Program-made: the position numbers and the translations under genes | DNA from: Pseudomonadales bacterium | Lineage (GTDB): Bacteria > Patescibacteriota > Microgenomatia > UBA1400 > PJMF01 | Length of the DNA: 64,000 nt | Assembly (NCBI GenBank): GCA_020632265.1 | Contig: JACKFW010000001.1 | Span: 727,272-791,271 of the forward strand | Reading direction: 5' to 3' | Shown: piece by piece, positions 3,593-53,100 of the stretch | Layout of the letters: every line of letters starts with the position of its first letter | How positions within the stretch are numbered: the stretch's first letter is position 1 | The notes under the pieces: generated by a model | Seen by the model: the letters and a program-made list of their open reading frames with translations, nothing else | Told to the model about the DNA's origin: nothing | Databases searched by the model: none

Positions 3593-3646
3593 TTATATAC
3601 CAATATTGCTATACTTGAATATTCATTTTTTGCTATAATTAATGAT

Positions 3647-12867: not shown

Positions 12868-12905
12868 CAATTTATAAAAACCAAGAAAAATAATAAAGGC
12901 AAATT

Positions 12906-13892: not shown

Positions 13893-13932
13893 ATGTTATT
13901 ATTAAATTTGAAGTATTTACTGTCCGATACTT

Positions 13933-15105
13933 ATGCAAGAACACACAATTCCGCAAGACATCACCGGCTATAGATTTCACATAATCGGAAGCATGACCTT
14001 GAAACAATTTGGCGAAATATTTTTAAGCGTTATTGTTGCAGTAATTATTTACAACACAAATCTTTCAGCAATAATTAAATGGCCACTAATATTTTTGTCC
14101 GTAGGCATAGGTGCCACCGCTGCTTTTGTTCCTATTGAAGAAAGACCTCTTGATCACTGGATAGCAACCCTTGTTAGAATAATGTATAAGCCCACCAAGT
14201 TTTTCTGGAAAAGAGAAGCATCTATTCCAGAGGCCTTCTTATATCAAAGTCTTAAATCAACTATAATTCAAGAGCCCGAGCTTGATTTAAGCGTTGCCAA
14301 ACATCAAAGAATTAGCGAATATTTAGGCTCAATTCCTGAAAGAAGCTCCTTCTCTGCCGATTACTCTCAAGATGAAATAATAAAAATGCAAAATATATTA
14401 TCTAGTTTTGAAAGTGTTAACATTAGTTCGCCAGTTACCAAATCAATTAAGCAAATAGCCAAAAAACCCAATCTTGATGTTAGGGTTAGAAGCTTGAGAA
14501 TTCCTAAAAATATCGATGATGTTAAAGTTTTTGAATCACAAGAAGATTTTTCTGAACCAGAATCAATGTTTGAGCCTAGAAAAAAACATACTATTGATCA
14601 AAAGGGCATGAAAAAGGCAGTTTTGTCTTCCGATCAAGTTGCTCAAAACATTGATGTTCCACAAGAGGGAACGGTCAAACTAATTTCAAAAGAAGAAGAG
14701 ATTGAAAGAGTAGTTGCCGGGCAATCAGGATCTGATTTAAGTGAAAAAACCTTTATTCAAAATCAAAAAAGAGTAGTAGATAATCTGAATGCTACCAAAG
14801 ATGTTTCTTTTAATTCAAGCCTGCCGTTTCCAATCAAACCAACCAAGCCAAACAAACTTGTTGGCATGGTTCTAAGCAAAACAAACGACCTATTAACAGA
14901 TTCAATTGTTGAGGTTCAAACCTTGGATGGAGGAATTGAAAGAGCAGTTAAAACAAACGCTCTTGGACAATTTTATATTACTACCCCTCTCAGAGCGGGC
15001 GAATACAAAGTTGTGGTCGAAAAAGATCATTATATTTTTGAGCCCATGCATATAACAATTAATGACACAATAATTCAACCAATTGAAATTAGGAGTGAAA
15101 ACTAG
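13933..15105 (+). CDS. VirB3-like small-membrane-domain protein with a C-terminal carboxypeptidase-regulatory-like beta-sandwich
   Basis: Two N-terminal TM helices lie directly upstream of the VirB4 gene, the typical VirB3 position. The C-terminus reads ...GMVLSKTNDLLTDSIVEVQTLDG...YKVVVEKDHYIFEP, resembling a CarbopepD_reg-like fold. Confidence 0.45.
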   Translation: MQEHTIPQDITGYRFHIIGSMTLKQFGEIFLSVIVAVIIYNTNLSAIIKWPLIFLSVGIGATAAFVPIEERPLDHWIATLVRIMYKPTKFFWKREASIPEAFLYQSLKSTIIQEPELDLSVAKHQRISEYLGSIPERSSFSADYSQDEIIKMQNILSSFESVNISSPVTKSIKQIAKKPNLDVRVRSLRIPKNIDDVKVFESQEDFSEPESMFEPRKKHTIDQKGMKKAVLSSDQVAQNIDVPQEGTVKLISKEEEIERVVAGQSGSDLSEKTFIQNQKRVVDNLNATKDVSFNSSLPFPIKPTKPNKLVGMVLSKTNDLLTDSIVEVQTLDGGIERAVKTNALGQFYITTPLRAGEYKVVVEKDHYIFEPMHITINDTIIQPIEIRSEN

Positions 15106-15138
15106 AATTAAATCAAAGAAAGATATAAACTATAAGTA

Positions 15139-16257
15139 ATGTCAAGCAAAATAATAAGCTCAACAACTCAACAATTCTTAGATATTTTTGATATCACAAA
15201 CGATCTTGTGATCATGAAGGATGGAACCACATCTTTAATTATTGCTATCGACGCAATGAATTTTGGTCTTTTAGCCGAAGAAGAACAAGATAGCATCATG
15301 TACGCATATGCAGGTCTATTAAATTCGCTAAACTACTCCATTCAAATTGTAATCAGATCTCAAACAAAAGATGTAACGGGATATTTACAACTTCTTAAGG
15401 ATCGAGAAAATTCTTCGCGAGACAGAAACAAACAAATTAGAATTCAAAAATATCGAGAATTTGTTAGCAATTTAATTAGAGAAAGAAATGTTCTTGATAA
15501 AAAATTTTATATTGTTATTCCTGCTCAGCCCGTGGAACTTGGAATTTTGCCTCCCTCAAGTATTTTGCCAGGAAAAGGTCAAATTAATATTACTTCGGTT
15601 GATAGAAATTTAATTCTTGAAAAAGCTAGAAATATTCTCGAGCCAAAAAGAGATCATCTTATTGCTCAATTTGCAAGAATTGGCTTGTATTCAAGACAGT
15701 TAGAAACTCAAGAAATTATTCAGCTGTTTTATTTAAGCTACAACCCAGAGGCATCTGAAGGTCAGCAACTTGGAAATAGCTTAAGTTACACATCTCCACT
15801 AGTATCAGCCAAAATAGAGGGAAATCTCATGAACGACAGTCAAGTTCAAACAGTCTCTCAAGACGAAACAGAAGGATTGGTCGTAGCGCCTAACCCTAGT
15901 CTAGCTGAAAATATTGTTTCGATGCCACAAGCAAATTTTGCATCTGCTCAAAATGGAGAAGTTTCTTCTCAAAATCTAGTAAACAGCAACATATCGTCAG
16001 AGTCTTCACAAAACCCAATAAACAATCAAACAATGACGAATTCTTCGCAAGCACCAACTTTGGCGACTCCGCCTGCTCCAGAAATTCCAAAAATGGAGCC
16101 CGGAATAACAGATAATCTCGTTCCTAAAGAAGTAGTTACAACGATCAAAGCTCCTGAAGAATCTTTTCCAAATTCCAACGCTGATACGAGCAACTCGGGT
16201 ACTTTAGTAACAAATCAAAATAGAGACAATGCGATGCCACCACTTGCAGAAATTTAG
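15139..16257 (+). CDS. Hypothetical protein with a Ser/Asn/Gln-rich C-terminal half, T4SS-associated
   Basis: 372-aa ORF immediately upstream of the VirB4-like ATPase. Same strand, tight spacing. Confidence 0.5.
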   Translation: MSSKIISSTTQQFLDIFDITNDLVIMKDGTTSLIIAIDAMNFGLLAEEEQDSIMYAYAGLLNSLNYSIQIVIRSQTKDVTGYLQLLKDRENSSRDRNKQIRIQKYREFVSNLIRERNVLDKKFYIVIPAQPVELGILPPSSILPGKGQINITSVDRNLILEKARNILEPKRDHLIAQFARIGLYSRQLETQEIIQLFYLSYNPEASEGQQLGNSLSYTSPLVSAKIEGNLMNDSQVQTVSQDETEGLVVAPNPSLAENIVSMPQANFASAQNGEVSSQNLVNSNISSESSQNPINNQTMTNSSQAPTLATPPAPEIPKMEPGITDNLVPKEVVTTIKAPEESFPNSNADTSNSGTLVTNQNRDNAMPPLAEI

Positions 16258-16326
16258 CAAATAGTTGGTGGCAAAATAGCTAAAATTAAAATAAGTAGAT
16301 AGTTTATAATTTTTCAAGTACAATGT

Positions 16327-18381
16327 TTGTTGATGCCCAATATTCTGAATTCATTACCATTTTTCAAAAAAAAAGATAACCAAGGAACAGAGTCTGCTCC
16401 AATCTTAAGCCAGGAGCAAAAAGATTTGGCCAAGCTTGAAGAGTTCTCAAGAGGTCTTGTAACAATTCAGGACATAATTGCTCCTGAAGCAATCGAGGTT
16501 GATTTTACTTTTCAAAAAATTAATTCCACCTACACCAGAACCATCTTTATTGCAGGTTATCCAAGAAGTGTGCCGGCAAATTGGCTTTCTCCCCTAATTA
16601 ACTATCCTCATCAAATGAATACCTCGATGTTTATTTATCCAGTAGATTCTGGAGAAATTTTAGACAACTTAAAAAGAAAAATCACTGAGATGGAGGCTGA
16701 GATTCAATCAGACCTAAGATCGGGGAAAATTAGTAACATTAATACCGAAATTAAACTTGAAGACGCTCGATTTATTAGAGAAGAACTGGCAAAAGGATCT
16801 GAAAGATTTTTCCAATTTGGCCTATATGTAACAATTCAAGCAGTTTCAAAAGAAGAATTGGATCGAATTACTAAAAGTATTCAATCTGCATTAGGTTCTC
16901 TTCTAATTGTGTCCAAAAAAGCCACGCTTCAAATGGACGAAGGCTTCAAAACCACTCTTCCTATGGGAACAGATAAGCTAAAAGTTACAAGAAACATGGA
17001 CACCACTTCCCTCGCAACAACCTTCCCTTTTACTTCTAGTGAATTAACTATGGAAACAGGAATTATGTATGGAATCAACGAACACAATGATTCTCTAGTA
17101 ATTTTTGACAGATTTAAAATGGAAAATGCCAACATGGTAATCTTTGCAAAATCTGGAGCTGGAAAATCTTACACCGTTAAACTTGAGATACTTAGACAAC
17201 TTATGTTTGGCGCTGAAATTATTGTTTTAGATCCTGAACACGAATATGAAGAGCTTTCTGGAGCGGTTAAAGGCGAATATATTAATTTTACTTTTGGATC
17301 AGAAACCAAACTAAACCCTTTTGACCTTTCTAACCTTTATGAAGAAGGCGAAAACGAACTTGGTCAAAAAATAATTTCTTTACACGGATTGTTAAAGGTC
17401 ATGTTGGGAGACATGACCCCTCAACAAGACGCTCTTCTAGACAGAGCATTAGTTGCTGCATACAAAGCAAAAGGAATTACCCCAGATCCTGCAACACAAA
17501 CAAACGAACCACCTCTTATGGAAGACGTATATAAAGCATTAATTGGAATGGAGGCCAAAGAAGCCGATGATATTTCCGCAAGATTGGAAAAATATATTAT
17601 TGGATCTTTTAGAGGTATATTTGATCAAAAATCTAACTTTGATATTAAGAATCAATTAACAATTTTTTCTGTTAAAGAAATGGAAGAAGCAATCAGGCCA
17701 GTTGCAATGTATGTTATTTTGGATTTCATCTGGACCAGAGTTAAAAAAGATCTAAAAAAACGAATACTCATTGTTGACGAAGCCTGGTATTTTATGAAAA
17801 ACCAAGATTCTGCTTCGTTTTTACACTCAATGGTCAAAAGAGCAAGAAAATATTATCTTGGAGTAACTACAATTACTCAAGACGTTGAAGACTTTCTACA
17901 TAACGACTACGGTAGAGCGATTGTTACAAATGCGTCTATTCAGTTTTTGATGAAACAATCCACCGCCTCAATTCCAATTTTGGCCGAAACATTTTATTTG
18001 TCTCAAGGAGAACGCCAACTTTTAGTTTCTTCTGACGTTGGCGAAGGTATTTTCTTTGCAGGACAAAACCACGTCGCTCTCAGAGTGGTGGCTTCAGAAG
18101 AAGAGCATTTGGTTATCACAACTAATCCTGAAGAACTAGTTGAAAGAAAAAGATTAAAACTATCAAATATGCCTGGAAATGACTCTATTGTGAGACAACC
18201 GCCCACAAACAGTCAACCAAACATTGATGATACTGAAGAAGAAAAAAAGCGAAAAGAAGAAATTATGAAACAATTTAATAGTATTGATGAAACAAACAAA
18301 AGCACCTCTACCGCTGAAAAAGAAATGAAAACCGCAACCGACATGTATTCTATTGACTCCTATAACCCTCCTTCTTCTTGA
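16327..18381 (+). CDS. virB4: VirB4/TrbE/CagE-family type IV secretion ATPase
   Basis: Walker A FAKSGAGKSYTVK and Walker B RILIVDEAWYFM (the DEAW form typical of VirB4). Size 684 aa with the domain order expected for VirB4. Confidence 0.85.
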   Translation: MLMPNILNSLPFFKKKDNQGTESAPILSQEQKDLAKLEEFSRGLVTIQDIIAPEAIEVDFTFQKINSTYTRTIFIAGYPRSVPANWLSPLINYPHQMNTSMFIYPVDSGEILDNLKRKITEMEAEIQSDLRSGKISNINTEIKLEDARFIREELAKGSERFFQFGLYVTIQAVSKEELDRITKSIQSALGSLLIVSKKATLQMDEGFKTTLPMGTDKLKVTRNMDTTSLATTFPFTSSELTMETGIMYGINEHNDSLVIFDRFKMENANMVIFAKSGAGKSYTVKLEILRQLMFGAEIIVLDPEHEYEELSGAVKGEYINFTFGSETKLNPFDLSNLYEEGENELGQKIISLHGLLKVMLGDMTPQQDALLDRALVAAYKAKGITPDPATQTNEPPLMEDVYKALIGMEAKEADDISARLEKYIIGSFRGIFDQKSNFDIKNQLTIFSVKEMEEAIRPVAMYVILDFIWTRVKKDLKKRILIVDEAWYFMKNQDSASFLHSMVKRARKYYLGVTTITQDVEDFLHNDYGRAIVTNASIQFLMKQSTASIPILAETFYLSQGERQLLVSSDVGEGIFFAGQNHVALRVVASEEEHLVITTNPEELVERKRLKLSNMPGNDSIVRQPPTNSQPNIDDTEEEKKRKEEIMKQFNSIDETNKSTSTAEKEMKTATDMYSIDSYNPPSS

Positions 18382-18517
18382 TTAAATATTGAAAAAAGCT
18401 AATTTTTTTACCCCTTGTACTTTGTGGATAACTTTGTGTATAAGTATATATATCTTCTGTCCAAGTTTTGTTTTAAAAAATATTATTTACTAAAATTTAC
18501 CTTAGTATCGATTAATT
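18382..18517. promoter_or_regulatory. dnaA upstream region with DnaA boxes (oriC/dnaA promoter candidate)
   Basis: TGTGGATAA (perfect complement of TTATCCACA) at 18423-18431 and TGTGTATAA (1 mismatch) at 18435-18443. AT-rich. Confidence 0.55.
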
Positions 18518-28063: not shown

Positions 28064-28100
28064 GTAAAAACCTCGAATAAAATCGAGGTTTTTTATTTTT
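28064..28100. terminator. Bidirectional intrinsic terminator
   Basis: An A-run, then stem cctcga (28071-28076), loop ataaaa, stem tcgagg (28083-28088), then a T-run. It lies between convergent rplY (+) and a minus-strand ORF. Confidence 0.6.
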
Positions 28101-28551
28101 GAAATAGGGGATTGTTGGGGTCAATTAATTTGGCTTTTTCCCACAATAAGTTAGCTTCATCATTTTCGTTTAAAAGTCTTTTTAGGTTTGATAAATTTAT
28201 TAGAGCATCTCTCGAGTGAGGTTGTTTTTTTACCACATCTTCCCAAAACTCAACTTCTGTTTGTATTTCCTCAAATGTTTTCTGAGATTTTATGTACAAA
28301 TCTGATCTGCTGGGACTGTACTCGACATTATTTTCCGGAGTAATTTTTGAGATTTTTTTAATATTTATATACAAAAGAAGCAAGCTTAGTATTAAGAATA
28401 ATAAAAAAATTCCAACTAAAACTAGTTTTCCTTTTTTTGCTTGAAGCAAAATTAGTTTAAAGGAAAATAATGACAAATAATAAAGTAGCTTAAGTTTAAA
28501 GATAAATAACTTCATTAGTTTATGATACTGGAGTAGGCCAGTCAGAGACAA
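28093..28551 (-). CDS. Small membrane protein with a TPR-like C-terminal segment (hypothetical)
   Basis: 152-aa ORF with two TM helices. Its 5' end overlaps the valS 3' end by about 30 nt. Low information. Confidence 0.4.
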   Translation of the reverse strand: MSLTGLLQYHKLMKLFIFKLKLLYYLSLFSFKLILLQAKKGKLVLVGIFLLFLILSLLLLYINIKKISKITPENNVEYSPSRSDLYIKSQKTFEEIQTEVEFWEDVVKKQPHSRDALINLSNLKRLLNENDEANLLWEKAKLIDPNNPLFQK

Positions 28552-30913
28552 TCAGTAGTTTATTTTTTACCACTTTTTTCTCGAGTAATTCCTGCCAAAT
28601 TGTTTCGGTTACAAATGGCATAAATGGATGTAATAGTTTCAAAAAAGTGATTAATCCATAAGAGAGTTTTTTTAGAGATACATCTCCGTCTTTTGATTTT
28701 TCAATACAAATATCACAAAACCAATGCCAAAATTCGTTATAAACCACTTCAGCGGCTAAACCTACTTTTAGGTTAGAAAAGTGTTGAGTAACCTCAACAA
28801 TAATATCGTTTAGTTTTTGGTCAAACTCTTGATCTAGAGGAGAGTTTTCGGTGACAGTTTTGTCGTGGGGTTCTTCAGTCATCATGATAATAAAGCGAGC
28901 AGCGTTCCAAGTTTTATTAGTTAAATTTCTCATTGCTTTAAAATCAGGTTTTCCAACAGATTTATCTTGTCCAGGAGTTGATCTAATAATTAATGCCATT
29001 CTGAGCGCATCTGCGCCAAACTCGCTTTTTACCTCAATTGGGTTGATTACATTACCCTTGGATTTACTCATTTTTTTACCTTTTTCGTCTCTGATTAATC
29101 CATGTAGGTATACATTTTCAAAAGGAGATTTGTTGGTCATATAAATACCCAACATCATCATTCTCATTACCCAAAATGGAAGAATGTCATAACCGGTTTC
29201 CATAACAGAAAGGGGATAGAATCTTTCAAAATCAGATTTATTATTGGTTTTTAAGGTGACTATTGGCCACTGGCTTGAGGAGAACCAAGTGTCAAAGGTA
29301 TCTGATTCTTGAATATAATTGCCGTCAGTTGGTTCGTTAACTGAAACAGAGTAGGGGACTGAAATATTTGCGCTAATTGATTGTATATTTTGTTTAATTT
29401 CCTCAAGAGAATATGTTTTTAGCCAATCTGACAAAAGTCCGGTTTGATATTGGTTTTCCTTATCAAGAAAATTAACAATTATATTTTCTTCATTGCCGTC
29501 AGTTTTATACCAAACTGGAATCGAAATTCCCCATGTGATTTGACGTGAAATATTCCAATCTTTTAAATTATTTAGCCAGTGTCTAAGGATTTTTTCTCTA
29601 CCAGCACCAAAGATTTTTGTTTCATTTGTATCGAGTGCGTTAAGAGCATTTTGGACGAGATTAATTTTGTCATCAGCAACTTTGATGAAAAATTGTGGCA
29701 AAGGTAATGGTTCTATTAGTCTTCCACAGCGATAGCAAGTTCCCACTGAGTGAGTATATTTTTCATTGACTGAAATGAGGAGTGACTTTCCTTCGGCAGT
29801 TTTGTAAGATTTGTAGTCTTTAAGAACTGCTTCTCTGGCGTTTACTACACCAAGATTATTATATTTATCGGGAGAATTAATGATTTTTCCGCTGGTGTCG
29901 ATAACGGGAATTGGTTGTTCGATTATTTCATTTTTGTGGGTTTCCCACATTTGGAAATCATTGGCGTCGTGGTAAGGAGTAACTTTTACAGCTCCTGTGC
30001 CAAATTTTGGATCAACATATTCATCGGCAATAACTATCATGGTTTTTTTACCCCATGGAAACTCAACTTCCAAGTGCTTGCCAACATACTCTTTATATCT
30101 GGGATCATTGGGATTTACTGCGATGGCTACATCTCCAAAAATAGTTTCTGGTCTAACAGTTGAAACTTGAAGAGGGCCATATTGAATTGTATAAAGCGGA
30201 TCGATTCGTTCAACATGGTCTACTTCAAGCTCGGAATAGCTAGTGCCACACTTTGTGCAGTAGTTAACAAGCTTAAAATCGCGATATATCAATCCATCTC
30301 TGTATAATGATTGGAATGTTTCTAATACTTCTGCGACAATGTCTTCGTCGAGGGTAAATTTAAATCTAGACCAATCTAGACTAAAACCAAGTTTTTTTAA
30401 TTGATCTACCGCAACCTCAGAATTTTCTTGGACGTATTGCCAAATCATTTGATAAAGCGATTTTCGATCAAAGTTAAACCTACTTTTACCTTCTTTTTTA
30501 AGTTTTTTTTCAAAAACAAATTGGGTTTCAATGCCAGCGTGATCTGTTCCAGGTATCCAGAGGGTGTCGTCTCCTAGCATCCGGTGGTATCTGATCATTA
30601 CGTCTTCGACAACATACATGGCGTGGCCAACGTGTAGGGGGTCGTTGGCGTTGGGAGGGGGTAAAACTATAGAAAACTTGTTGCCTGTAGCTACTGCTGT
30701 TCCTTTATTAGGTTGGTTATTTTTGTCTTTTTGAAGTTCAATCTTGGAATCTGGGTTAAAAGCATCAGCTTGGCGTAACTTCAACACAGAATCTGGGTTA
30801 TCGGCATCATTTTGGCGCAACTTAAGCACCGAATCTGGGTTAAAAGCATCAGCTTCCTCCCACAATTTGTATATTTTTTCTTCAGATAATTTAAAATCGT
30901 ATCTCGAGTCCAT
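28520..30913 (-). CDS. valS: Valine--tRNA ligase (short form lacking the C-terminal coiled coil)
   Basis: PPPNANDPLHVGHA (HIGH region) plus ...LWIPGTDHAGIETQ..., the KMSKSKGN motif, and a CP1 editing-domain-sized insert. 797 aa. Confidence 0.88.
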   Translation of the reverse strand: MDSRYDFKLSEEKIYKLWEEADAFNPDSVLKLRQNDADNPDSVLKLRQADAFNPDSKIELQKDKNNQPNKGTAVATGNKFSIVLPPPNANDPLHVGHAMYVVEDVMIRYHRMLGDDTLWIPGTDHAGIETQFVFEKKLKKEGKSRFNFDRKSLYQMIWQYVQENSEVAVDQLKKLGFSLDWSRFKFTLDEDIVAEVLETFQSLYRDGLIYRDFKLVNYCTKCGTSYSELEVDHVERIDPLYTIQYGPLQVSTVRPETIFGDVAIAVNPNDPRYKEYVGKHLEVEFPWGKKTMIVIADEYVDPKFGTGAVKVTPYHDANDFQMWETHKNEIIEQPIPVIDTSGKIINSPDKYNNLGVVNAREAVLKDYKSYKTAEGKSLLISVNEKYTHSVGTCYRCGRLIEPLPLPQFFIKVADDKINLVQNALNALDTNETKIFGAGREKILRHWLNNLKDWNISRQITWGISIPVWYKTDGNEENIIVNFLDKENQYQTGLLSDWLKTYSLEEIKQNIQSISANISVPYSVSVNEPTDGNYIQESDTFDTWFSSSQWPIVTLKTNNKSDFERFYPLSVMETGYDILPFWVMRMMMLGIYMTNKSPFENVYLHGLIRDEKGKKMSKSKGNVINPIEVKSEFGADALRMALIIRSTPGQDKSVGKPDFKAMRNLTNKTWNAARFIIMMTEEPHDKTVTENSPLDQEFDQKLNDIIVEVTQHFSNLKVGLAAEVVYNEFWHWFCDICIEKSKDGDVSLKKLSYGLITFLKLLHPFMPFVTETIWQELLEKKVVKNKLLIVSDWPTPVS

Positions 30914-38788: not shown

Positions 38789-39592
38789 TTAGGATTTCTT
38801 CGCGTATCTTTCACCACTTACTTGAATAACCTTGTTTCTATTTAAGTTACTGCTTTTTGCTAAAGCGAGAGTTTGTGCTGGGAATGGCTTGGATACCATG
38901 TTATCAATTGAGAGTTTGTTGATAATTTGATATCTATTAAGTGAAACTAAATCTTCAGTTGAATATTTATCACCAAATTCCTTGGCAAAGACTTGAGCAT
39001 CTTCAGCTCCCATTACAAAACTCATCATGCTTCCACAGTTTCCAAAAATTGCTTTTTGAACTTCTTCAGGAATTTGAGCAATATATTGATTGGCTAAAAT
39101 TAAGTTTAGTCGATATTTTCTGGCTTCTGATAAAATTTTATTAAATGATTCGGTGGCAAAGTTCTGGAATTCATCTACATATAGATAGAAGTCTTTTCTT
39201 TGTTCTTCAGGTATGTTCACTCTAGACATGGCTGCGAGCTGAATTTTGGTAATCATCATTGATCCTAAAAGAGTAGCGTTGTCTTCGCCTAGTTTTCCCT
39301 GAGAAAGGTTTACTAAGATAATCTTTCCAGAGCTCATTGCCTCTTCAATACTAAAAGAACTTTTCCTTGCATTAACAATATTTCTGACAATTGGTGAAGA
39401 TACAAATTGACCCACTTTATTTAAAATCGAAGCAATGGATTCAGTTCTTTGTCTGTCCTGCATCATATTGTATTCATCAACCCAAAAGCTTTTTAGAATT
39501 GGATCGTCAAGAGTTTCAACAATATTGTCTCTAAATTTTTTGTTGGTGAGAAGTTCTAATATGTCTGAAAGTCTGGCTTGATCAACTTTCAA
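38789..39592 (-). pseudogene. C-terminal fragment of a VirD4/TraG/HerA-superfamily (coupling-protein-like) ATPase. Carries Walker B.
   Basis: YLYVDEFQNFA (Walker B) followed by LILANQYIAQIPEEVQKAIFGNCGSMMSF..., typical of T4SS coupling proteins. TTG start in the ORF track, but its frame stays open upstream to 39740 and overlaps the previous ORF. Confidence 0.55.
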
Positions 39593-39612
39593 TAAGGTAA
39601 GCAGTGAGTTTC

Positions 39613-40983
39613 TTAAAATGTACTCAAGCCTGGGACCCCAAGAATATCCATATAATTTTTTGAAAACTGAAACAATTCCAGACGCAATGAGTTCTCTATG
39701 AGCAACATTTTCTCCTTCAAAGAGATTGAGTTTAAAGTTCTATTTGGATCACTTGGATCAAAGTAAATAACATCATTGATTCTTCTTGAGGGAATATAGT
39801 TTAAAATTGTTTCAATTAGGTCGCCGTGGGGGTCGATGATACATATTCCTTCGTTGTTTTTGAGATCATTAATCGCCATGTTAGCCAGAAGAGTAGATTT
39901 ACCGGTACCGGTTTTTCCGATTACATACATGTGTCTTCTTCTGTCGTCGCGTTTAAGACCATAAACAACATCATTGTTCTTATACTGAGTTTTGGCAAAG
40001 GCATTAATTTCGCCTTTTAATTCTGGATCCATGTCTCGGGTAATAATAGGCAAATTCTCAGGTGGTTCTCCGAGTAAATTTTTTCCCCAAGCAATGTTGG
40101 AAATGGTTGACAATTTCAAATTTGGCATATGTAACAGCGTAGCAGCTTCTTCTAAGGACAAATTGAATTTTGGAGAGCCCTTAAAACTTCTAGACTTTAA
40201 GAGTTTCAAAAATCTTTTTTTAAGGACATATTTTCGATGCAAAATTAAACTATTACCTTCACTATCGGATACAACGTCAAAAGCAGCTGCAAGAGTGTCA
40301 AATATAACCTTGCTTCTTTGTTGACTATCAGAAGAAATGGCTAATCTAATAGAAGTCTTTAGCGACTTACTGTCAAGTTTTTTATTTACTTTCTGTTTTT
40401 GAACACTCAAAATTTGAAGAGGAGAATTTTCATTTTCAGTGTTAGCTGTTCTATCTGTTGTAATTCCAGCTTTCCACTTTTCCGAGCTTTTTGATATTAC
40501 ATATTGAATTATTACTCGATCAAATTCTTCTAATTTTGACAGAGTAGAGAGTATGGCTGACATCGGATCTGTGTCGCTGAAATCTTTGTAGGTTTTGAGC
40601 GGAAGATATTGAGGCTTTTTTAAGTTGAAACTGCCCATTTCGAAGAAATGACTTTTATTTTTTGCATAATTATCGTGGCGGTTAAGAAATCCATCCAATG
40701 AGTCATGATTAATTTCTGCAATTAAAATTTCAGGATAACTAGCAATTAATATGCTTTTAACATAATTAATCAATCTATCTGGTACATACATTTGAAAAAA
40801 TATGGTTTGATTCTCAACAATAATTTCAAAACTAAGATGTTCGTCTTTTCTGAGTAATTTCCAGTGCCAACGATTTTTTAAGTTGGGTAGGGATGCGAAG
40901 AGTTGAACTGCTGATTCAGGCGTATGTTCGCTATCGCGACCAGTTCTTAGTTCGAGGATAGTGTGGCTTGCGGGCATGTACAA
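39613..40983 (-). pseudogene. N-terminal fragment of the same VirD4/TraG/HerA-superfamily ATPase. Carries Walker A.
   Basis: YVIGKTGTGKSTLLANM (Walker A) then IIDPHGDL. No N-terminal TM. It ends 20 nt before the next ORF, in a different frame. Confidence 0.55.
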
Positions 40984-41842
40984 AGTATATCACTTGTTCA
41001 AGTTAACGTATATCAGATTTGTAATCTTTGTCATTAGATTTGCTTCTATGAATTAGTACATATTAGATAAATTATCTTTGACAAATAGGAGACTATTTCA
41101 ATCAAAGTAAAAAACCCGAAAATAGGTAGAAAAATATTAAAATAGTTGTTAACATTATCATCTTTGATTGGTTTAATGTGGATAACTTTTTTATATATAT
41201 CTATAAATTACAAACAAAAAATTATATAAGACGTACTAATTACGCACAATATTAAACTATAGGTTGACTATTTAAATTTTAATAGTTATACTAGGGTAAT
41301 AAAAGGTTTGTTTTGAGGTTAGGGGATTAAAAAAAGCATTATTATCGCTGGACAGACCACGAATAACAATGCTCTTTTCGTTTACATGGCGTTTAATTAA
41401 AAACTTTTAAGAACCATGTGAGTCCAAGATTACTTGACTAGAAACAAATTGTAAATTCGATCTTTATGATTCTAAGTACATCGAATAACATCAAAGTGAT
41501 TTTTTGAACACAGATGTTGTGCGGAGGTTCGGTAGTTGGGCAGGCAACCGAGCTTCCACACAGCATCTTGTTAAGCTACTTTTAATTTTTTCTTTCTTCA
41601 TATTTTTGTTTGATTTTGCATTTTCTTTTGACTTTTTGATGTTTGTTTGTCATAATACCAAGTAGCTTCAAATTTTTATCATTTTTCTTAATATTCATCC
41701 TAAGTATTATATTCAGATTTAGTTTATTAAGTAGAATTTTATTTTTCACTATTTTTTGCAAATAAAATTATCCTTAGTTAATTACTTTTACACCCAGTTA
41801 TTTATAAGTTATTAAAAATTATTATCAATTAGAAAATCTAAT

Positions 41843-43177
41843 ATGACAGATAAAAAATCTGAAAAAGATGTTGTTGAGCCAGTCTCAAATACAACAGTAA
41901 AAAATGTTGTTGAGCCAGTCTCAAATACAACAGTAAAAAATGTAACAAATACCTTGCCAAAGGCAAGTCAAGACATTGTTACTGAGAGCTTGAAAAGAGT
42001 TCCTGTAATGCCTTTAATGAAAAATAATTACGTAAAAACAGAAGAAAATGGCAAGATGATTACAGGATTTCTAGATCTTTCTAGAGATGGACATGGAGTT
42101 TTAAGAGCTTCCTTGACAGGTGAAGATGATTTAGATGCTTATATTTCGACTTCTCAAATTAGAAGATTTGGACTCAGAGCCGGAGATATAATTTCTGGTC
42201 CTGCTAGAGAACCAAAAGATAACGAAAGATTTTGGGGATTACTAAAGATATCAGAAATTAATGGTATGCCAGCCGATGAAGCAAAAAAATTACATCGAGC
42301 AATATTTAATAAATTTACTCCAGTTTATCCTGATTCAAGACTAAAGTTAGAGATTAATCCAGAGCTACTATCATTAAGAATTATCGATATGATCGCTCCA
42401 ATTGGTAAAGGACAAAGGAGTTTAATTGTTTCACCACCAAAAGCAGGTAAGACAACCTTATTAAAAGATATTGCTACTGGAGTTGCACAGAACCATCCTG
42501 AAGTTCATGTTATGGCTGTTCTAGTTGGTGAACGACCTGAAGAGGTAACTGATATCAAGCGTCATATCGCAAGAATTACTGATAGCAAGGGCGAGGTTGC
42601 ATCTAGCAATTTTGACGAATCAGCAGTAGATCAATGTCGCGTCGCCGAGTTAGCTTTGGAAAGAGCAAAGAGATTGGTAGAAGAAGGCAAAGATGTTTTG
42701 ATTCTTCTAGATTCAATTACTCGTCTGGCCAGAGCATACAACCTTTCAATTCCAACTTCTGGTAGAACTCTGTCCGGTGGTTTTGATCCAGCTGCTTTAT
42801 TCCCACCAAAAAAATTCTTTGGAGCTGCAAGAAATTTTGAAACTCCAGGTAGTTTGACAATTGTAGGAACCGCATTGGTTGAAACAGGTTCAAGAATGGA
42901 CGATTTAGTTTATGAAGAGTTTAAAGGAACGGGCAACCAAGAAATCCATTTAGACAGAAGGTTGGCTGAGAGAAGAATTTTTCCATCCATTGATGTTCAA
43001 AAATCTGGAACTAGAAGAGATGATCTATTAATTGATAGTATGGAGTATCTTTCTATTACAACTTTGCATAGAATGTTAGATATGTTGGATAAAGATAAAA
43101 GAACATCAACTCTTATTCAGCAGTTAAAGAAAACAAAATCAAATAAAGAATTTTTAGCTTCACTAAAAAATGGCTAA
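41843..43177 (+). CDS. rho: Transcription termination factor Rho
   Basis: OB-fold/CSD-like N-terminal domain, Walker A GKGQRSLIVSPPKAGKTTLLKDIA, Q/R loops, and a C-terminal ...RRIFPSIDVQKSGTRRDDLL. 444 aa. Confidence 0.92.
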   Translation: MTDKKSEKDVVEPVSNTTVKNVVEPVSNTTVKNVTNTLPKASQDIVTESLKRVPVMPLMKNNYVKTEENGKMITGFLDLSRDGHGVLRASLTGEDDLDAYISTSQIRRFGLRAGDIISGPAREPKDNERFWGLLKISEINGMPADEAKKLHRAIFNKFTPVYPDSRLKLEINPELLSLRIIDMIAPIGKGQRSLIVSPPKAGKTTLLKDIATGVAQNHPEVHVMAVLVGERPEEVTDIKRHIARITDSKGEVASSNFDESAVDQCRVAELALERAKRLVEEGKDVLILLDSITRLARAYNLSIPTSGRTLSGGFDPAALFPPKKFFGAARNFETPGSLTIVGTALVETGSRMDDLVYEEFKGTGNQEIHLDRRLAERRIFPSIDVQKSGTRRDDLLIDSMEYLSITTLHRMLDMLDKDKRTSTLIQQLKKTKSNKEFLASLKNG

Positions 43178-48282: not shown

Positions 48283-48966
48283 ATGAAAATCAATGATATG
48301 AATGGGTCTTTTTTAACAAGAAAAAATTCAGGTTTTACATTGATTGAATTATTAATAGTGGTTGCCATTTTAGCAATTTTGATCATGATGGCCATTTCTA
48401 CTTTGCCAAAACAACTTGAAAAAGCAAGGGATTCAGAAAGAAAAAGCGATCTGCAAAAAATTAAGATTGCCTTTGAAAATTATCATAATGATAATGGTTG
48501 TTATCCCCCAGCAAATGTTTTAAATAATTGTGGAGGTACATCTCCTGCCAATCACGAACTTAGTCCTTATTTACAAAATATTCCTTGTGATCCAAAAGAT
48601 GAAAAACCATATTTATATTTGCCATACGATAAAAATGGTGGCGCTAATACGTGTGATGGTTATAGGGTTTGGGCAAATTTAGAGAAAAATGATGATCCCT
48701 CAATAGTATTGTTGAATTGTGCCGGGGGTAGTGGTTGTGGAGCATATGCTTTTTTTGCTTCAACACTTGGAGATGAAGCTTCAGAATATAACTATGGCGT
48801 TTCTGAAGGTGTGCCCGTATCTACTGGTGAGCAAGCAATAACTCTGACTAGCGGTTATTGTTGTGCTGGATCATGCAATGAATGGAATATTGATACTGGA
48901 GTTTGTGCAGATGGTCCATATCCATCTTATCAAGATTGCGTGGACATAAGTTATTGCAATGATTAA
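48283..48966 (+). CDS. Prepilin-type N-terminal cleavage/methylation domain protein (type IV pilin/pseudopilin-like), Cys-rich C-terminal domain
   Basis: Class III signal ...RKNSG|FTLIELLIVVAILAILIMMAI with Glu at +5. Confidence 0.78.
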   Translation: MKINDMNGSFLTRKNSGFTLIELLIVVAILAILIMMAISTLPKQLEKARDSERKSDLQKIKIAFENYHNDNGCYPPANVLNNCGGTSPANHELSPYLQNIPCDPKDEKPYLYLPYDKNGGANTCDGYRVWANLEKNDDPSIVLLNCAGGSGCGAYAFFASTLGDEASEYNYGVSEGVPVSTGEQAITLTSGYCCAGSCNEWNIDTGVCADGPYPSYQDCVDISYCND

Positions 48967-48990
48967 AATAAAATTAAATAACAGGAAATT

Positions 48991-49518
48991 ATGAAACAAA
49001 AAAATAAGAGCATTTTGGGATTTACAATGATTGAGTTGTTAATTGTGATTGTAATATTGGGCATTCTATCGGTAATTGGACTTGGCTCTTTTACTGCTGC
49101 ACAACAAAAATCACGAGATGCTAATAGAAAAAGTAGCTTAAATGGCATCGCAACTGCTTTGGAGGTTTATTATAATGATCATGGTGCTTATCCTCAGGGA
49201 GTTTCTGGCTCAATTTACGGATGTGGAGTTTCTGGAGTTGAAATATGTGTTTATGGTGCAATCTGGCAGGACGACAATAATACAGTTTATATGGTCCAAA
49301 TACCAACGGATCCGCGACAAAATTCTTTTTATTATGTTTCTGATGGAACAGAATATCAACTCTATGCAAGACTAGAAAATGTTAACGATAGATCGGTTCC
49401 TCAGGTTGGTAATAATCCTGGTGTTTATGCAGTTGCAAGTTCATTTTGTGGTGGATCTGGATGCAATTATGGAATTGCGAGTAGCAATAGTACTTTAGGT
49501 GTCACTGAAGCAGATTAA
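48991..49518 (+). CDS. Prepilin-type N-terminal cleavage/methylation domain protein (type IV pilin-like)
   Basis: ...SILG|FTMIELLIVIVILGILSVIGLGSF; Glu+5. Confidence 0.78.
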   Translation: MKQKNKSILGFTMIELLIVIVILGILSVIGLGSFTAAQQKSRDANRKSSLNGIATALEVYYNDHGAYPQGVSGSIYGCGVSGVEICVYGAIWQDDNNTVYMVQIPTDPRQNSFYYVSDGTEYQLYARLENVNDRSVPQVGNNPGVYAVASSFCGGSGCNYGIASSNSTLGVTEAD

Positions 49519-49554
49519 TATTGGATTATTAATAATATAGTAGGGTAGATAAAT

Positions 49555-50013
49555 ATGAAAAAAAAGAGAATAACAACAAAGGGTTTTACTCTAATTGAAT
49601 TACTAGTGGTGATTTCCATCATTGGAGTCTTAACAGCACTTTTGCTTTCAAATTTTGTAGGTATCAGGGCCCGAGCAAAAGACGCCCAATTAAAAGCTGA
49701 TCTTCAACAAATGAAAACTGCTTTAAGACTTTACTATAATGATTTCCAACAATATCCTGAAAGTAATTTAAATACATTTAAAAGTTGCAATGAGGAAGCT
49801 TGTGTTCAGGGTTCTGAATTCAACTCAGCTGCTGGAGGAACTGTATATATGAAAGAGTTGCCTGCATTCAGCGAGTATGTACGTACTAACAACGGCGATG
49901 GTTTTTATTTAGGTGTAGTTTTGGAAAATTCTTCCGATCAGGATATTACCGAAAGTGCTACAAAATGTTCTGCCCCTGGAACAGCAGACACATTTTATGT
50001 TTGTTCTGACTAA
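49555..50013 (+). CDS. Prepilin-type N-terminal cleavage/methylation domain protein (type IV pilin-like)
   Basis: ...TTKG|FTLIELLVVISIIGVLTALLLSNF; Glu+5. The C-terminal disulfide pair is typical of pilins. Confidence 0.78.
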   Translation: MKKKRITTKGFTLIELLVVISIIGVLTALLLSNFVGIRARAKDAQLKADLQQMKTALRLYYNDFQQYPESNLNTFKSCNEEACVQGSEFNSAAGGTVYMKELPAFSEYVRTNNGDGFYLGVVLENSSDQDITESATKCSAPGTADTFYVCSD

Positions 50014-50170: not shown

Positions 50171-53100
50171 CTAATTTACTAACCACCAGTTGAATGAAAC
50201 GTCAGAAGAGGTAGCTTGATCAAAGCCAACAACAAACTCTCCTTCATTTATTGGAGTTTCTTGGTTTTCAGCAGTTTGTTCTTTGACATAAAGCACTTGA
50301 TTTCCTGTGCTTCCAACCGCTGTAACATAGATTAATGTTTTGTCAGTGATTGAGCTTGACTTTATTTTTACTTGAGATGCATTTGCTTTAATTGTTGCTT
50401 TTCCAGAAGTTTTTTCTGAATTAAGTTCGTTGGTTGTTGATGAACCCAGATCTTGACTGCCGATACCAATACCACCAGCAAATTCTGCTTTTCCTTGGGC
50501 AGAAAAGGTTGCGACTGGAGCACCGACTTCATTAATAATTTCGAATCTTGATTCTTTGATATTGCCACTTTGAGTATCAACACCTGCTACTTGAACTTGG
50601 AATGGATTGCCAAAGTCTGTTGGTTTAATTAAATTTGCTAATAGAGTTTTGCCAACTTTTACATCACCAGTACTTTCAAAATTACCATTTACTGTGACCA
50701 TTCCAGAATCGTTGATAGTAACAATTCCTGCCAACAATTCAATCGATCCTTTTCCTTGAGGCTGAATTTTTAGAATTTGATCATCTGGACTTATTGAATT
50801 ATAGGCAATAATGCCATTAGAGATTGAAGTATTTGTATCTTTTGTTCCGATAATTAGCGAGTTATTAACAAAAATTGAGTTTCCAACTGCAAGAGAATCA
50901 GAAATGTATCCAGCTCCGTTTACTTTGAAATATTTTTCGATAAACAATGAAGAACCAGTAAGCGTAACATCATTTCCTAAAAATGAAAGATCGCTAATAC
51001 TTAGATCTAGTTGCGCACTAGTAGTGGCTCCAAATTCTGATTTATTAATTACGTCATAAAGTTCTTCCATATAAGATGCTGAAGTTGTGCTGTCTTTGCC
51101 AATTAATAAGTCTAATAATCCTGGAGTCTGCAGAGTATTGGTAATAGTTTGTTCAAAATTATAAATATTATCGGCGTAAAGTGTTCCAGATATTGTTGCA
51201 GTTACTATCTCAGCTGTATTGGCTTTGATTTTTTCTAATTCTGCAATTCCAGCTTCGAGAGCGGTAATTCTTGCAGAAGTGGCCTCAACTTTATTGGCCA
51301 ATAATGTGCCAGATATCGTTGCATTATTGGCAACGTTCAAGGAGCCAGAAATGGTGGCTTCCTGAGCAAGAAGTATACCGAGATTAGTTTTGCTGGCATT
51401 AATTTCATTGGCTGATAATTTTCCTGAAATAGTAGCTATTGAAGTTTTAAGCTCATTTGAAAGCAAAGTACTTGATTTAATACTTCCAGATATCGTTGCA
51501 TTTCCTTGTGTGGTGAGTGATCCCGAGAGATTTAAATCACCTTTGTTTGATAGCTGAGCAACGGAAACATCAGTGTTATTTTTGAATAATACAGAACCAC
51601 TGTCTGAGTCGATCTTAATTGCTGTATCATCGCCAATTGGAGAGATGAGCGTAGAATTATCATTAGTTGTTCCAGCTGTAACATTATTTATTATATCGGT
51701 AACATAGTTGGTAATTGATTTTCCACCAATAGTAAGTGAATTTACGGAAAGATTATTAATTGAAGCAGTTGATTGAACAACTAATTTTTTCGTGTTGATC
51801 ATTCCTGCTTGAATATTGCCGACAACGGTTTCAGAAAAAAGTGCAATTTTTGAGATTAATCCTTGAGAACTTGAAACATTGTATTTATTTAAAACGATGT
51901 TGTCTTCATTGATGACTACATCATTGGTATTTGCAATTTCAATCATGGGATCAATATGGCTGAGCTGTTCGGTTACTGAATTAAGTGAGAGTTGTTGTTC
52001 TTGAACTGCCTTCACAAGAAGAGGGGTTAGTTTCCCATAATCTACCGACCAATACTCATCGGGATTTTCTGGAATATACACTGCCTCTGGATATATTTGG
52101 GCTAACTGTTGAGCAATAAAGCCAGTGTGGGTTCTTTTTGAATCTTCAGAAATGAACTCATAATCTTTTACTTCAACCTGCAGTAAATCTGCGAGAGAGA
52201 AATTAGTTTCTCTGATATTTTCTTTCAAGCGAATATCTGATGAAGTGCCATAGGTAGTGGTTGTCCCACTGAAAGTAATTTCACCAACGTCTGTGCCATC
52301 ACCGTCATTGAACTGAATGAGGGTACCACTCCCACTATCTGCTCCTGCTTTGATTAATAAACCAAGCCGATTGGCATTATTACCATCATTGAAAAACTTC
52401 GAAACATAATTTGCAGAATCAACAATTACTTCTAATTTTGCTGTGGGAGAATTTTGTCCGACTCCAAAATTGCCCGCATTGTCCAGAATTGCTGCCAATG
52501 TATCATTGGAGAAAAACGACAGTGCATCCTTACCATGTTCGTACTGAATTCTTCCCGAATCATCTCTGTCAGTATCACCAAAAAGAATGCCGGCATTACC
52601 AGTATTTCCTGAGATTACAGAAATAAACGAGTTGTCTGAGGCGGCCGATGATTCATTGGCAACAAAATTAGTTCCAGAGCTGAGTGTTGGGATTGATCCA
52701 CCATCTGCATTGATGTGAAGTTTCACTCCAGCAGTACTAGTGCCAATTCCGATATTGCCGTTGCCATTGACTATGCCCAAGACGGTTCCAGCACTATTTT
52801 GCCATTCGGTGAGGTTGGCGGTTTGGGAGGAGTGGCCTTTGACTATGAATTGCTGAGTATCTGCCGCACCTCGAATAATTGTTGCTCCAGTGATATCGAC
52901 GGGTCTGTCTGCCGTAGCTACGGCTCCAAATTTGATATTGCCAGCGTGCATGGATTGTCCTCCTGTCGAATAGAGTGTCCAGCCAGACTGGGTGCCGGTA
53001 TAGAGAGCTATACCAGTGCTGGTACCACTTGGCTGTTGATCTCCAACAAAAATTCCATAGTTTGAGGTAACGCTAGTGGTGGTGGGAGCACTTACATATA

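What the first reader, a model, noticed from the sequence alone, without database searches (positions are those of the whole stretch)
38789..40983. T4SS coupling-type (VirD4/TraG/HerA-superfamily) ATPase split by a frameshift in a window containing an A6 homopolymer
Walker A (GKTGTGKST, then IIDPHGDL) is in ORF 39613..40983. Walker B (YVDEFQNF) and the following ILANQ...GNCGSMM block are in ORF 38789..39592. The two frames overlap: the downstream frame is open back to 39740, and the upstream frame runs to its stop at 39613. A single +/-1 shift between 39616 and 39739 would restore one ATPase of about 720 aa. That interval contains a CAAAAAAT (A6) run on the coding strand (T6 at 39656-39661), a classic slippage or sequencing-error site.

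This is therefore either a recently inactivated coupling ATPase, phase-variable or programmed slippage, or an assembly error. It matters for whether the T4SS-like system is functional. The product also lacks the N-terminal TM helices of canonical VirD4, so it may be a soluble HerA/TcpA-like ATPase.
Basis: seen in the sequence. Interest (0 to 1): 0.55.

Follow-up and report, generated by a model that had tools for sequence, protein, structure and literature searches.

The report
Frameshift-broken VirD4-like ATPase gene

Summary
Two minus-strand ORFs (39613-40977/40983 and 38789-39592, frame open back to 39739) are the two halves of one ~730 aa soluble VirD4/TrwB-like P-loop ATPase. It has an N-terminal DUF8128 domain and no TM helices.

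This gene is intact in all 142 related Patescibacteria loci where both motifs could be scored, and it sits in conserved synteny (M23 peptidase-rho-[gene]-radA).

The frameshift is not at the A6 run (39656-39661). That run encodes the conserved F-K-K and has its native length. Homologue alignment places the lesion at 39733-39736: ancestral AGA ACT GTT AAA CTY became AGA ACT TT AAA CTC, a loss of the G of a Val codon.

The same lesion appears in three Logan read-set assemblies and in a JGI contig that differs by one synonymous SNP, so an assembly artefact is unlikely. No intact allele above 84% identity was found.

The downstream half keeps 171 of 172 family-invariant residues, so the lesion is young or partly compensated. 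The deletion happens to create U_UUA_AAC, a -1 slippery heptamer that would restore a protein of native length. There is no stimulatory structure, no conservation of the frameshift, and this heptamer type shifts poorly in bacteria.

Verdict: ordinary recent pseudogenisation of a probably dispensable gene. Low-to-moderate interest.

The parts
39736..40977 (-). N-terminal, native-frame part of the ATPase gene (residues 1-414). It contains the DUF8128 domain, Walker A GKTGTGKST (39892-39918) and IIDPHGD (39820-39840). NCBI annotates it as MCB9813494.1, 'DUF87 domain-containing protein'.
   Evidence: The ATG at 40977 lies about 8 nt downstream of a TATACT -10-like box.
39730..39736 (-). Frameshift site. 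The coding strand reads ACT|TTAAAC. One nucleotide is missing between 39736 and 39735, most simply the G of Val codon GTT. The lesion creates the heptamer T_TTA_AAC in the upstream frame.
   Evidence: Codon alignment with 76 GTDB loci. The nearest relatives, L004 and L068, read AGA ACT GTT AAA CTT; the window reads AGA ACT TT AAA CTC. In 142 of 143 related loci Walker A and SWGPR lie in one ORF, with Val in 136 and Ile in 6 at this position.
39613..39735 (-). Out-of-frame tail of the upstream ORF (LNSISLKEKMLLIENSLRLELFQFSKNYMDILGVPGLSTF*). It has no homology to the family.
38789..39735 (-). C-terminal part of the ATPase gene in the -1 frame (residues ~416-731). It contains KLNLFEGENV...SWGPRLEYILRN, Walker B YLYVDEFQNF (39158-39187), ILANQ and GNCGSMM. 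Only 38789-39592 has a start codon (TTG), and that stretch is annotated as MCB9813493.1, 'TraM recognition domain-containing protein'.
39656..39661 (-). It has its native length and encodes the conserved F-K-K in the downstream frame. It is not the lesion.
13933..18381 (+). Context: monoderm-type T4SS-like genes 21 kb away and next to dnaA. They are PrgI/VirB3-like (13933-15105), TrsD-like (15139-16257) and VirB4-like (16327-18381). All appear intact.
   Evidence: The arrangement is as described for Patescibacteria in PMC12102498.

Best explanation
The two ORFs are one orthologous gene for a soluble, DUF8128-fused VirD4/TrwB-like (T4CP-type) hexameric-ATPase homologue. This gene is nearly universal in this group of Patescibacteria.

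In this lineage a genuine single-base deletion has shifted the frame between Walker A and Walker B. The deleted base is the G of Val416 codon GTT, at window 39735/39736 on the coding strand. Ribosomes reading from the ATG at 40977 therefore make a 454 aa product. That product has Walker A but lacks everything from the conserved KLNLFEG...SWGPRLEY segment onward, including Walker B. It ends in 41 nonsense residues and cannot be an active ATPase.

The downstream 267-codon ORF has no promoter-like or SD-like signal and would lack 48 highly conserved residues, so it is unlikely to be made or to work. The gene is thus a young loss-of-function allele (pseudogene). It is tolerated because this T4CP homologue is probably dispensable. 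At most a trace (of the order of 0.1-1%) of full-length protein could arise by spontaneous -1 slippage on the accidentally created U_UUA_AAC.

Shown:
- gene identity
- position and nature of the lesion
- its presence in several assemblies
- intactness of the gene in relatives
- lack of decay downstream of the lesion

Inferred:
- loss of function
- dispensability
- recency
For: 1. One gene. The repaired protein gives a single Pfam TrwB_AAD_bind stretch, 346-673, across the junction. It shows 63-84% identity over 100% of its length to the top-120 listed intact homologues (of >5000 hits at E <= 1e-10). Synteny TPR-obg-M23-rho-[gene]-radA is conserved, with a single ORF in L004, L005, L006, L055 and L068.

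2. Lesion mapped. Frame A matches homologues up to ...DPNRT. Frame B matches from KLNLFEGENV. The nearest relatives read ACT GTT AAA where the window reads ACT TT AAA.

3. Lineage-specific. In 142 of 143 related loci from GTDB genomes and JGI metagenomes, Walker A and SWGPR are in one ORF. Apparent breaks in L041, L069 and L077 are runs of N.

4. Real DNA.
- Logan assemblies of SRR12358675, SRR12358676 and SRR776449 are 100% identical across the site.
- JGI 3300010350 contig Ga0116244_10094329 carries the same lesion and differs by one synonymous SNP in 2283 nt.
- The rest of the window has long intact ORFs, including one of 4584 aa, so indels are not frequent in this assembly.

5. Young. The post-shift part keeps 171 of 172 columns that are invariant in 40 homologues; the single mismatch (V vs F) is at the frameshift junction itself. 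It shows no rate acceleration: 86-91% identity to relatives, the same range as relatives show to each other.

6. Dispensability is plausible. PMC12102498 reports that most Patescibacteria T4CP homologues lie far from virB4. It also reports that the homologue in Ca. [quoted passage not shown]

7. No separate expression signal for the 3' ORF. Genes in this window typically have a TATAAT-like box just upstream of the start and no SD. The TTG at 39592 has neither.
Against: - No raw reads could be inspected, so a minority intact allele or a systematic error cannot be formally excluded.
- Some of the Logan runs may be the read sets from which this MAG was built, so independence is only partly established. 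It rests on the SNP in L080 and on the much older accession SRR776449.
- The complete absence of decay downstream, and recovery of the allele in several data sets with no intact allele anywhere, would also fit continued selection on the downstream half. That would imply some read-through.
- The deletion creates a textbook -1 slippery heptamer exactly where a slip would give a protein of native length. Only 3.4% of all possible 1-nt deletions in this gene would do this.
Confidence: 0.7

Rival explanations
1. Compensated ('saviour') frameshift. The deletion is real, but ribosomes slip -1 on U_UUA_AAC (39736-39730) often enough to supply a functional amount of full-length ATPase (…NRT-L-N-LNLFEG…, the same length as the native …NRT-V-K-LNLFEG…). 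The gene therefore remains under selection.
For: - The heptamer X_XXY_YYZ sits in the correct (upstream) frame exactly at the lesion. Only 3.4% of simulated single-nt deletions in this gene get such a heptamer within 2 codons.
- The downstream half shows no decay: 171 of 172 invariant residues are kept and there is no rate acceleration.
- The frameshifted allele is the only allele found in five assemblies, and no intact allele was found.
- Translational correction of indels is a recognised phenomenon (review PMC5009743, listed).
Against: - There is no stimulatory RNA structure downstream. MFE z-scores are +0.43 (80 nt) and +0.85 (161 nt), no better than shuffled sequence.
- No SD-like element lies upstream.
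- In E. coli, heptamers without stimulators shift only 2-10 times above a ~0.055% background. Bacterial ribosomes tolerate the AAC-to-AAA A-site re-pairing poorly (PMC4066793).
- The same TTTAAAC occurs in-frame 69 nt upstream in this gene. It is therefore not avoided as a dangerous site.
- The slip would replace the near-invariant Val and the K/Q residue.
- The frameshift is absent from all 142 scorable relatives, so it is not an evolved recoding signal.
Confidence: 0.13
2. Sequencing or assembly artefact. The true genome has an intact gene (ACT NTT AAA) and one base was lost in the consensus.
For: - The MAG contig is 1.08 Mb, which suggests long-read assembly, where indels are common.
- A related long contig, L082, has two frame changes in this gene, one of them in an A-run.
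- Reads could not be examined.
Against: - The identical lesion is present in three Logan per-run assemblies and in a JGI contig that differs by a SNP elsewhere.
- The context (ACT-TT-AAA, a run of 3) is not a long homopolymer.
- Every orthologue compared in the 30-48 kb stretch of the window is a single ORF of the expected length, and a 13.7 kb ORF elsewhere in the window is uninterrupted.
Confidence: 0.06
3. Functional split gene. The 454 aa N-terminal product (DUF8128 + Walker A) and the 267 aa C-terminal product (Walker B + TraG-D_C) are made separately and assemble into an active ATPase. This would be analogous to the TrsD + VirB4 split seen in the same genomes.
For: - NCBI PGAP annotates two proteins.
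- Patescibacteria do carry VirB4 split as TrsD plus a VirB4 C-terminal part.
Against: - The split falls inside the RecA-like core.
- It would delete 48 residues (KLNLFEG...LLTLL) that include about 30 family-invariant positions.
- The 3' ORF starts at a TTG with no -10-like or SD-like signal.
- No relative is split here.
Confidence: 0.04
4. Phase variation or slippage at the A6 homopolymer 39656-39661.
For: - An A6 run lies in the frame-overlap interval.
- It forms A_AAA_AAT in the upstream frame (one search lists two heptamers in the overlap interval).
Against: - The run has the same length and reading (TTC AAA AAA = F-K-K) as in intact orthologues.
- Homology to the downstream frame starts 25 codons upstream of it. 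A shift at the run would replace the conserved KLNLFEGENVAHRELIASGIVSVF segment with nonsense.
- Six A's is well below the run length that usually gives efficient slippage (general knowledge).
Confidence: 0.02

Closest known systems
Patescibacteria chromosomal T4CP (VirD4) homologues described by CONJScan profiling in 'The type IV secretion system of Patescibacteria is homologous to the bacterial monoderm conjugation machinery' (PMC12102498)
   Same: - It is a VirD4-type ATPase homologue encoded on the chromosome, far from virB4 (21 kb here) and with no relaxase nearby.
- The T4SS cluster (PrgI/VirB3-like, TrsD-like, VirB4-like) sits next to dnaA, exactly as that paper describes.
- The window gene shows 63-84% identity to hundreds of such proteins.
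   Different: This copy is interrupted by a 1-nt deletion. All 142 scorable relatives are intact.
TrwB (R388) / VirD4 / TraD / DotL type IV coupling proteins
   Same: - P-loop ATPase with Walker A and B and a helical insertion between them.
- Pfam TrwB_AAD_bind and TraG-D_C matches above threshold.
- Best PDB sequence hit is TrwB 1e9r/1gl6, E 5.7e-8 over residues 342-639.
- Foldseek of the orthologue model matches TrwB, DotL and Cag-beta with TM(target) 0.43-0.51.
   Different: - No N-terminal membrane anchor. Instead there is a ~330 aa soluble DUF8128 domain.
- Far below NCBIfam equivalog cut-offs: 46 bits against 250 for conju_CD1115 and 39 against 366 for TraD.
- Not linked to a relaxase.
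VirB4/TrwK and HerA (two-domain soluble ATPases of the same superfamily)
   Same: - Overall architecture of an N-terminal alpha/beta domain plus a C-terminal RecA-like ATPase.
- The best Foldseek E-values of the orthologue model are to full-length TrwK/VirB4 (8rtd, 7o42; 1.6e-10 to 4e-9), followed by HerA 4d2i.
- Pfam DUF87 (HerA central domain) hit of 34.8 bits.
   Different: - TM-scores are low (0.25-0.29), with rmsd of 17 A, so only the domain folds are similar and not their arrangement.
- Sequence profiles favour VirD4/TrwB over VirB4.
- A separate bona fide VirB4 (NCBIfam conju_CD1110, 383 bits against a cut-off of 325) is present at 16327-18381.
-1 programmed ribosomal frameshift sites (dnaX A_AAA_AAG; IS3/IS911; coronavirus U_UUA_AAC)
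   Same: An X_XXY_YYZ heptamer, identical to the coronavirus one, lies in the zero frame at the frame junction. A -1 slip there gives a full-length product.
   Different: - No downstream hairpin or pseudoknot beyond chance, and no upstream SD-like element.
- Not conserved in any orthologue.
- The heptamer class is inefficient in bacteria (PMC4066793).

Membership tests
VirD4/TrwB-type type IV coupling protein (T4CP) | P-loop NTPase core with Walker A and Walker B | tested here: met
   GKTGTGKST lies at 39892-39918 and YLYVDEFQNF at 39158-39187, but in two different frames.
VirD4/TrwB-type type IV coupling protein (T4CP) | Profile match to TrwB_AAD_bind (PF10412) / TraG-D_C (PF12696) above Pfam gathering score | tested here: met
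   The repaired protein scores 49.2 bits on PF10412 (cut-off 20.5) in one stretch, 346-673. It scores 33.9 bits on PF12696 (cut-off 22). The separate upstream ORF alone falls below the PF10412 cut-off (18.1 bits).
VirD4/TrwB-type type IV coupling protein (T4CP) | All-alpha domain inserted in the nucleotide-binding domain | tested here: met
   The AlphaFold model of orthologue P0001 has helices 425-534 between Walker A and Walker B. The TrwB alignment spans residues 342-639. Foldseek TM(target) to TrwB is ~0.5. The model is of an 84%-identical orthologue, not of the window protein itself.
VirD4/TrwB-type type IV coupling protein (T4CP) | N-terminal transmembrane anchor | tested here: not met
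   The maximum 19-residue Kyte-Doolittle mean is 1.32, below the usual ~1.6 TM threshold. The N-terminus is the soluble DUF8128 domain.
VirD4/TrwB-type type IV coupling protein (T4CP) | Genetic linkage to a relaxase and/or T4SS channel genes | tested here: not met
   The neighbours are radA and rho. The VirB4-like cluster is 21 kb away. No relaxase domain was found among the ~29 largest window ORFs scanned (~29 of the 50 ORFs of >=90 aa). The rest of the 1.08 Mb genome was not available.
VirD4/TrwB-type type IV coupling protein (T4CP) | Reaches a curated NCBIfam equivalog cut-off (conju_CD1115, TraD, TrbC, CedD) | tested here: not met
   The best score is 46 bits against a cut-off of 250.
Patescibacteria DUF8128-T4CP orthologous group | Full-length collinear similarity and conserved rho-[gene]-radA synteny | tested here: met
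   84% identity over 100% coverage to P0001. Synteny is conserved in five relatives.
Patescibacteria DUF8128-T4CP orthologous group | Single uninterrupted ORF of ~720-740 aa | tested here: not met
   A 1-nt deletion at 39735/39736 interrupts the ORF. 142 of 143 relatives have one ORF.
Programmed -1 ribosomal frameshift signal | Slippery heptamer X_XXY_YYZ in the upstream frame within the frame overlap | tested here: met
   T_TTA_AAC at 39736-39730.
Programmed -1 ribosomal frameshift signal | Stimulatory element (downstream hairpin or pseudoknot 5-9 nt away, or upstream SD-like sequence) | tested here: not met
   MFE z-scores are +0.43 and +0.85 against shuffles. There is only a 6-bp hairpin 4 nt downstream, made of conserved codons. 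No GGAGG-like motif lies upstream.
Programmed -1 ribosomal frameshift signal | Conservation of the two-frame arrangement among orthologues | tested here: not met
   None of the 142 scorable relatives is shifted at this site.
Programmed -1 ribosomal frameshift signal | Demonstrated trans-frame protein product | not testable with these tools
   This needs proteomics, Ribo-seq or a reporter assay.
HerA/DUF87 helicase family | DUF87 (HerA central domain) profile match and HerA-like fold | tested here: inconclusive
   DUF87 scores 34.8 bits (cut-off 23.2), but the match is weaker than to TrwB_AAD_bind. Foldseek to HerA 4d2i gives E 5.5e-7 with TM 0.26/0.38. The NCBIfam HerA_antiphage score is only 19 bits.

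The most novel reading that the evidence does not exclude
The frameshifted allele is maintained, not decaying. A single-base deletion in a near-universal Patescibacteria T4CP-like ATPase gene would be translationally 'rescued' by stimulator-independent -1 slippage on a coronavirus-type U_UUA_AAC heptamer. That slippage would set a very low level of the full-length ATPase alongside a Walker-A-only DUF8128 protein. This would be an example of nascent recoding in an ultra-small, leaderless-mRNA bacterium.
Probability: 0.1. Interest if true: 0.55.

Novelty: new member of a known kind. Interest (0 to 1): 0.25.

Why it matters
The practical consequences are three.
- GenBank carries this gene as two separate proteins (MCB9813494.1 and MCB9813493.1). 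It should be one pseudogene or frameshifted CDS.
- A naturally occurring knock-out of the chromosomal T4CP homologue, in a lineage whose VirB4/TrsD/PrgI cluster is intact, supports the published suggestion that this ATPase is not needed for the essential, non-conjugative role of the Patescibacteria T4SS (PMC12102498).
- The case shows that pinning a frameshift on the nearest homopolymer without homologue alignment can point to the wrong site.

If the minority reading (rescue by -1 slippage) were true, it would give a simple natural system for studying how recoding sites originate.

Tried and rejected
1. A6 run as the lesion: rejected.

2. Second frameshift suspected in ValRS (28520-30913) plus the overlapping 152 aa ORF (28093-28551): rejected.
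- The ValRS matches its model up to the anticodon-binding domain.
- The next ORF is an unrelated TM/TPR-like protein.

3. Exact look-up of the TTG-start 456 aa product found nothing. The ATG-start 454 aa product was found.

4. The DNA pattern scan of metagenome contigs, which allowed either allele, found nothing. The protein-based scan found only relatives of 84% identity or less. That collection therefore lacks this organism, and no intact near-identical allele could be retrieved.

5. The junction-spanning protein search returned no near-identical intact fragment.
- P0130/L081 is a contig-end fragment of a relative that is intact at the homologous site.
- P0127/L082 is a different species with two other frame changes.

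6. Literature searches for SRR776449, SRR12358675/6, 3300010350, Ga0116244 and MCB9813494 found nothing usable. The environments and sequencing platforms of these runs therefore remain unknown to me.

7. Rfam and tRNA scans of the window found nothing.

8. Apparent breaks in L041, L069 and L077 were runs of N, not frameshifts.
Full report
**Observation**

On the minus strand, ORF 39613-40983 carries GKTGTGKST (39892-39918) and IIDPHGD. It is 456 aa from a TTG start, or 454 aa from the ATG at 40977. ORF 38789-39592 is 267 aa and carries YLYVDEFQNF (39158-39187), ILANQ and GNCGSMM. The downstream frame is open back to 39739, just after a TAG at 39742-39740. The upstream frame ends at the TAA at 39615-39613. 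An A6 run lies at 39656-39661.

**One gene, and which gene**

- Each ORF alone gives only partial domain hits. The upstream ORF hits DUF87, and TrwB_AAD_bind below threshold. The downstream ORF hits TraG-D_C.
- The conceptually repaired 731 aa protein matches TrwB_AAD_bind in one stretch, 346-673, that crosses the junction (49.2 bits).
- A search of 5.8 billion protein clusters gave more than 5000 hits at E <= 1e-10. The top 120 were all Patescibacteria proteins of 679-825 aa (most 705-770), covering 95-100% of the query at 63-84% identity. They carry PF26449 (DUF8128), PF10412, PF01935 and PF12696.
- The best solved-structure relative by sequence is TrwB (1e9r/1gl6, E 5.7e-8).
- An AlphaFold model of the 84%-identical orthologue P0001 (pLDDT 77.7) matches full-length VirB4/TrwK, HerA, DotL, TrwB and Cag-beta.
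- There is no TM helix.
- The neighbours are housekeeping genes, and the order TPR-obg-M23 peptidase-rho-[gene]-radA is conserved in five relatives, each with a single ORF.
- A monoderm-type T4SS-like cluster (PrgI-like, TrsD-like, VirB4-like, plus a large M23/NAGPA hydrolase) lies at 8.8-18.4 kb beside dnaA. This is the arrangement reported for Patescibacteria in PMC12102498. That paper also notes that T4CP homologues are usually far from virB4, and that the Ca. Southlakia epibionticum homologue was not essential while other T4SS genes were.

**Where the frameshift is**

- Alignment with 40 homologues shows the upstream frame is homologous up to ...YFDPSDPNRT. The downstream frame is homologous from KLNLFEGENVAHRELIASGIVSVFKKLYGYSWGPRLEY onward.
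- At the DNA level the nearest relatives read AGA ACT GTT AAA CTT AAT. The window reads AGA ACT TT AAA CTC AAT. One nucleotide is missing at 39735/39736, most simply the G of a Val codon.
- Across 143 related loci from GTDB genomes and JGI metagenomes that contain both motifs, 142 have Walker A and SWGPR in one ORF, with Val (136) or Ile (6) at this position.
It is not the lesion.

**Real or artefact**

- The exact split products are on record at NCBI as MCB9813494.1 and MCB9813493.1. The source is a MAG mislabelled 'Pseudomonadales bacterium', on a contig of 1,082,363 bp.
- They are also in Logan assemblies of SRR12358675, SRR12358676 and SRR776449, which are 100% identical to the window across the site.
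- JGI metagenome 3300010350 has a contig with the same lesion plus one synonymous SNP in 2283 nt.
- The sequence context is a run of three, not a long homopolymer.
- The window otherwise contains long uninterrupted ORFs, one of 4584 aa.
- I therefore regard an artefact as unlikely (about 6%). Reads could not be inspected, and some Logan runs may be the MAG's own data.
- No intact allele above 84% identity exists in any collection searched.

**Consequence and age**

- The upstream product would have Walker A but nothing from the KLNLFEG segment onward, followed by 41 nonsense residues.
- The downstream ORF starts at a TTG with neither the TATAAT-like box that precedes most starts in this window nor an SD. 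It would also lack 48 residues rich in invariant positions. Loss of function is thus the expected outcome (inference).
- The post-shift half retains 171 of 172 columns that are invariant in 40 homologues; the single mismatch (V vs F) is at the frameshift junction itself. It shows no rate acceleration relative to its relatives.
- The lesion is therefore young (by my estimate fewer than ~3-5 amino-acid changes since it arose), or the downstream half is still selected.

**The slippery heptamer**

- The deletion creates T_TTA_AAC (39736-39730) in the upstream frame. This is a canonical X_XXY_YYZ motif. A -1 slip there yields ...NRT-L-N-LNLFEG..., the same length as the native ...NRT-V-K-LNLFEG....
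- In a simulation of all 2187 single-nt deletions in the repaired gene, 3.4% gained or retained such a heptamer within two codons, and 23% had one somewhere in the frame-overlap interval. This is suggestive but not compelling.
- Against programmed frameshifting:
  - Downstream RNA folds no better than shuffles (z = +0.43 and +0.85).
  - There is no upstream SD-like element.
  - Unstimulated heptamers in E. coli shift only 2-10 times above a ~0.055% background, and AAC-to-AAA re-pairing is poorly tolerated (PMC4066793).
  - The same heptamer occurs in-frame 69 nt upstream.
  - No orthologue shares the shift.
- I give functional rescue about 13%.

**Verdict**

This is a genuine, lineage-specific single-base deletion that has most likely recently inactivated a conserved but probably dispensable DUF8128-VirD4-like ATPase gene of a Patescibacteria ('Pacebacteria'-like) genome. 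Its proposed shift site and the homopolymer/phase-variation idea are wrong. Interest is modest: it is an annotation correction, and a natural knock-out consistent with published non-essentiality. There is a small chance of an incipient recoding event.

Noticed in passing
window 41165-41580 (+), between the ATPase gene and rho: A strongly conserved non-coding block. A conserved TTGACT-17-TATACT promoter-like site (41264-41292) is followed by three conserved hairpins, the first flanked by A- and T-runs. RNAalifold predicts 64 pairs, 9 of them with compensatory changes. A 58-nt stretch is 93-97% identical to relatives whose coding DNA is much more diverged. There is no Rfam match. It may be a rho leader/attenuator or an undescribed small RNA.
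   Followed up: partly
L150 (Ga0066639_10082981) 2040-2075: A distant orthologue carries a +1 insertion in a C-run (GAC CCC C AAT AAG ACC GTT) only 12 nt upstream of the position homologous to the window's deletion. It may be a homopolymer error on a short contig, but the proximity of two independent frame changes is curious.
   Followed up: partly
L082 (JGI 3300071326, Ga0612041_0369) 2899-5087: Another orthologue, in the same rho-[gene]-radA synteny, has two frame changes. One is an extra A in the Walker A codons (GGAAAAAACTGG) and one is near residue 688. It is called as 360 aa plus 326 aa proteins and is probably the result of long-read homopolymer errors.
   Followed up: partly
window 8788-20086: A monoderm-type T4SS-like cluster lies directly upstream of dnaA. 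It contains a 1359 aa M23/NAGPA hydrolase, an unannotated 328 aa ORF, a PrgI/VirB3-like protein with a CarboxypepD_reg domain, a TrsD-like protein and a VirB4-like protein (conju_CD1110, 383 bits). This matches the dnaA-proximal arrangement reported in PMC12102498.
   Followed up: partly
window-wide, start-codon upstream regions (e.g. 3647, 8685, 8788, 30913, 33115, 36250, 40977): Many genes have a TATAAT-like box 5-10 nt upstream of the start codon and no Shine-Dalgarno motif. This suggests predominantly leaderless mRNAs.
   Followed up: no
window 50171-63925 (-) and 48283-50013 (+): A giant 4584 aa ORF whose only Pfam hit is a Peptidase_S74 (endosialidase chaperone) domain near its C-terminus. 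It lies next to three type IV pilin-like genes with N_methyl motifs.
   Followed up: no
window 41843-41960 (+), 5' end of rho: The N-terminus of Rho contains a perfect tandem duplication (VVEPVSNTTVKN x2), i.e. a 36-nt direct repeat.
   Followed up: no
NCBI records MCB9813492-94; GTDB record titles: This MAG and many related Patescibacteria MAGs are labelled 'Pseudomonadales bacterium' in their public records. This is an evident taxonomic mislabel.
   Followed up: no
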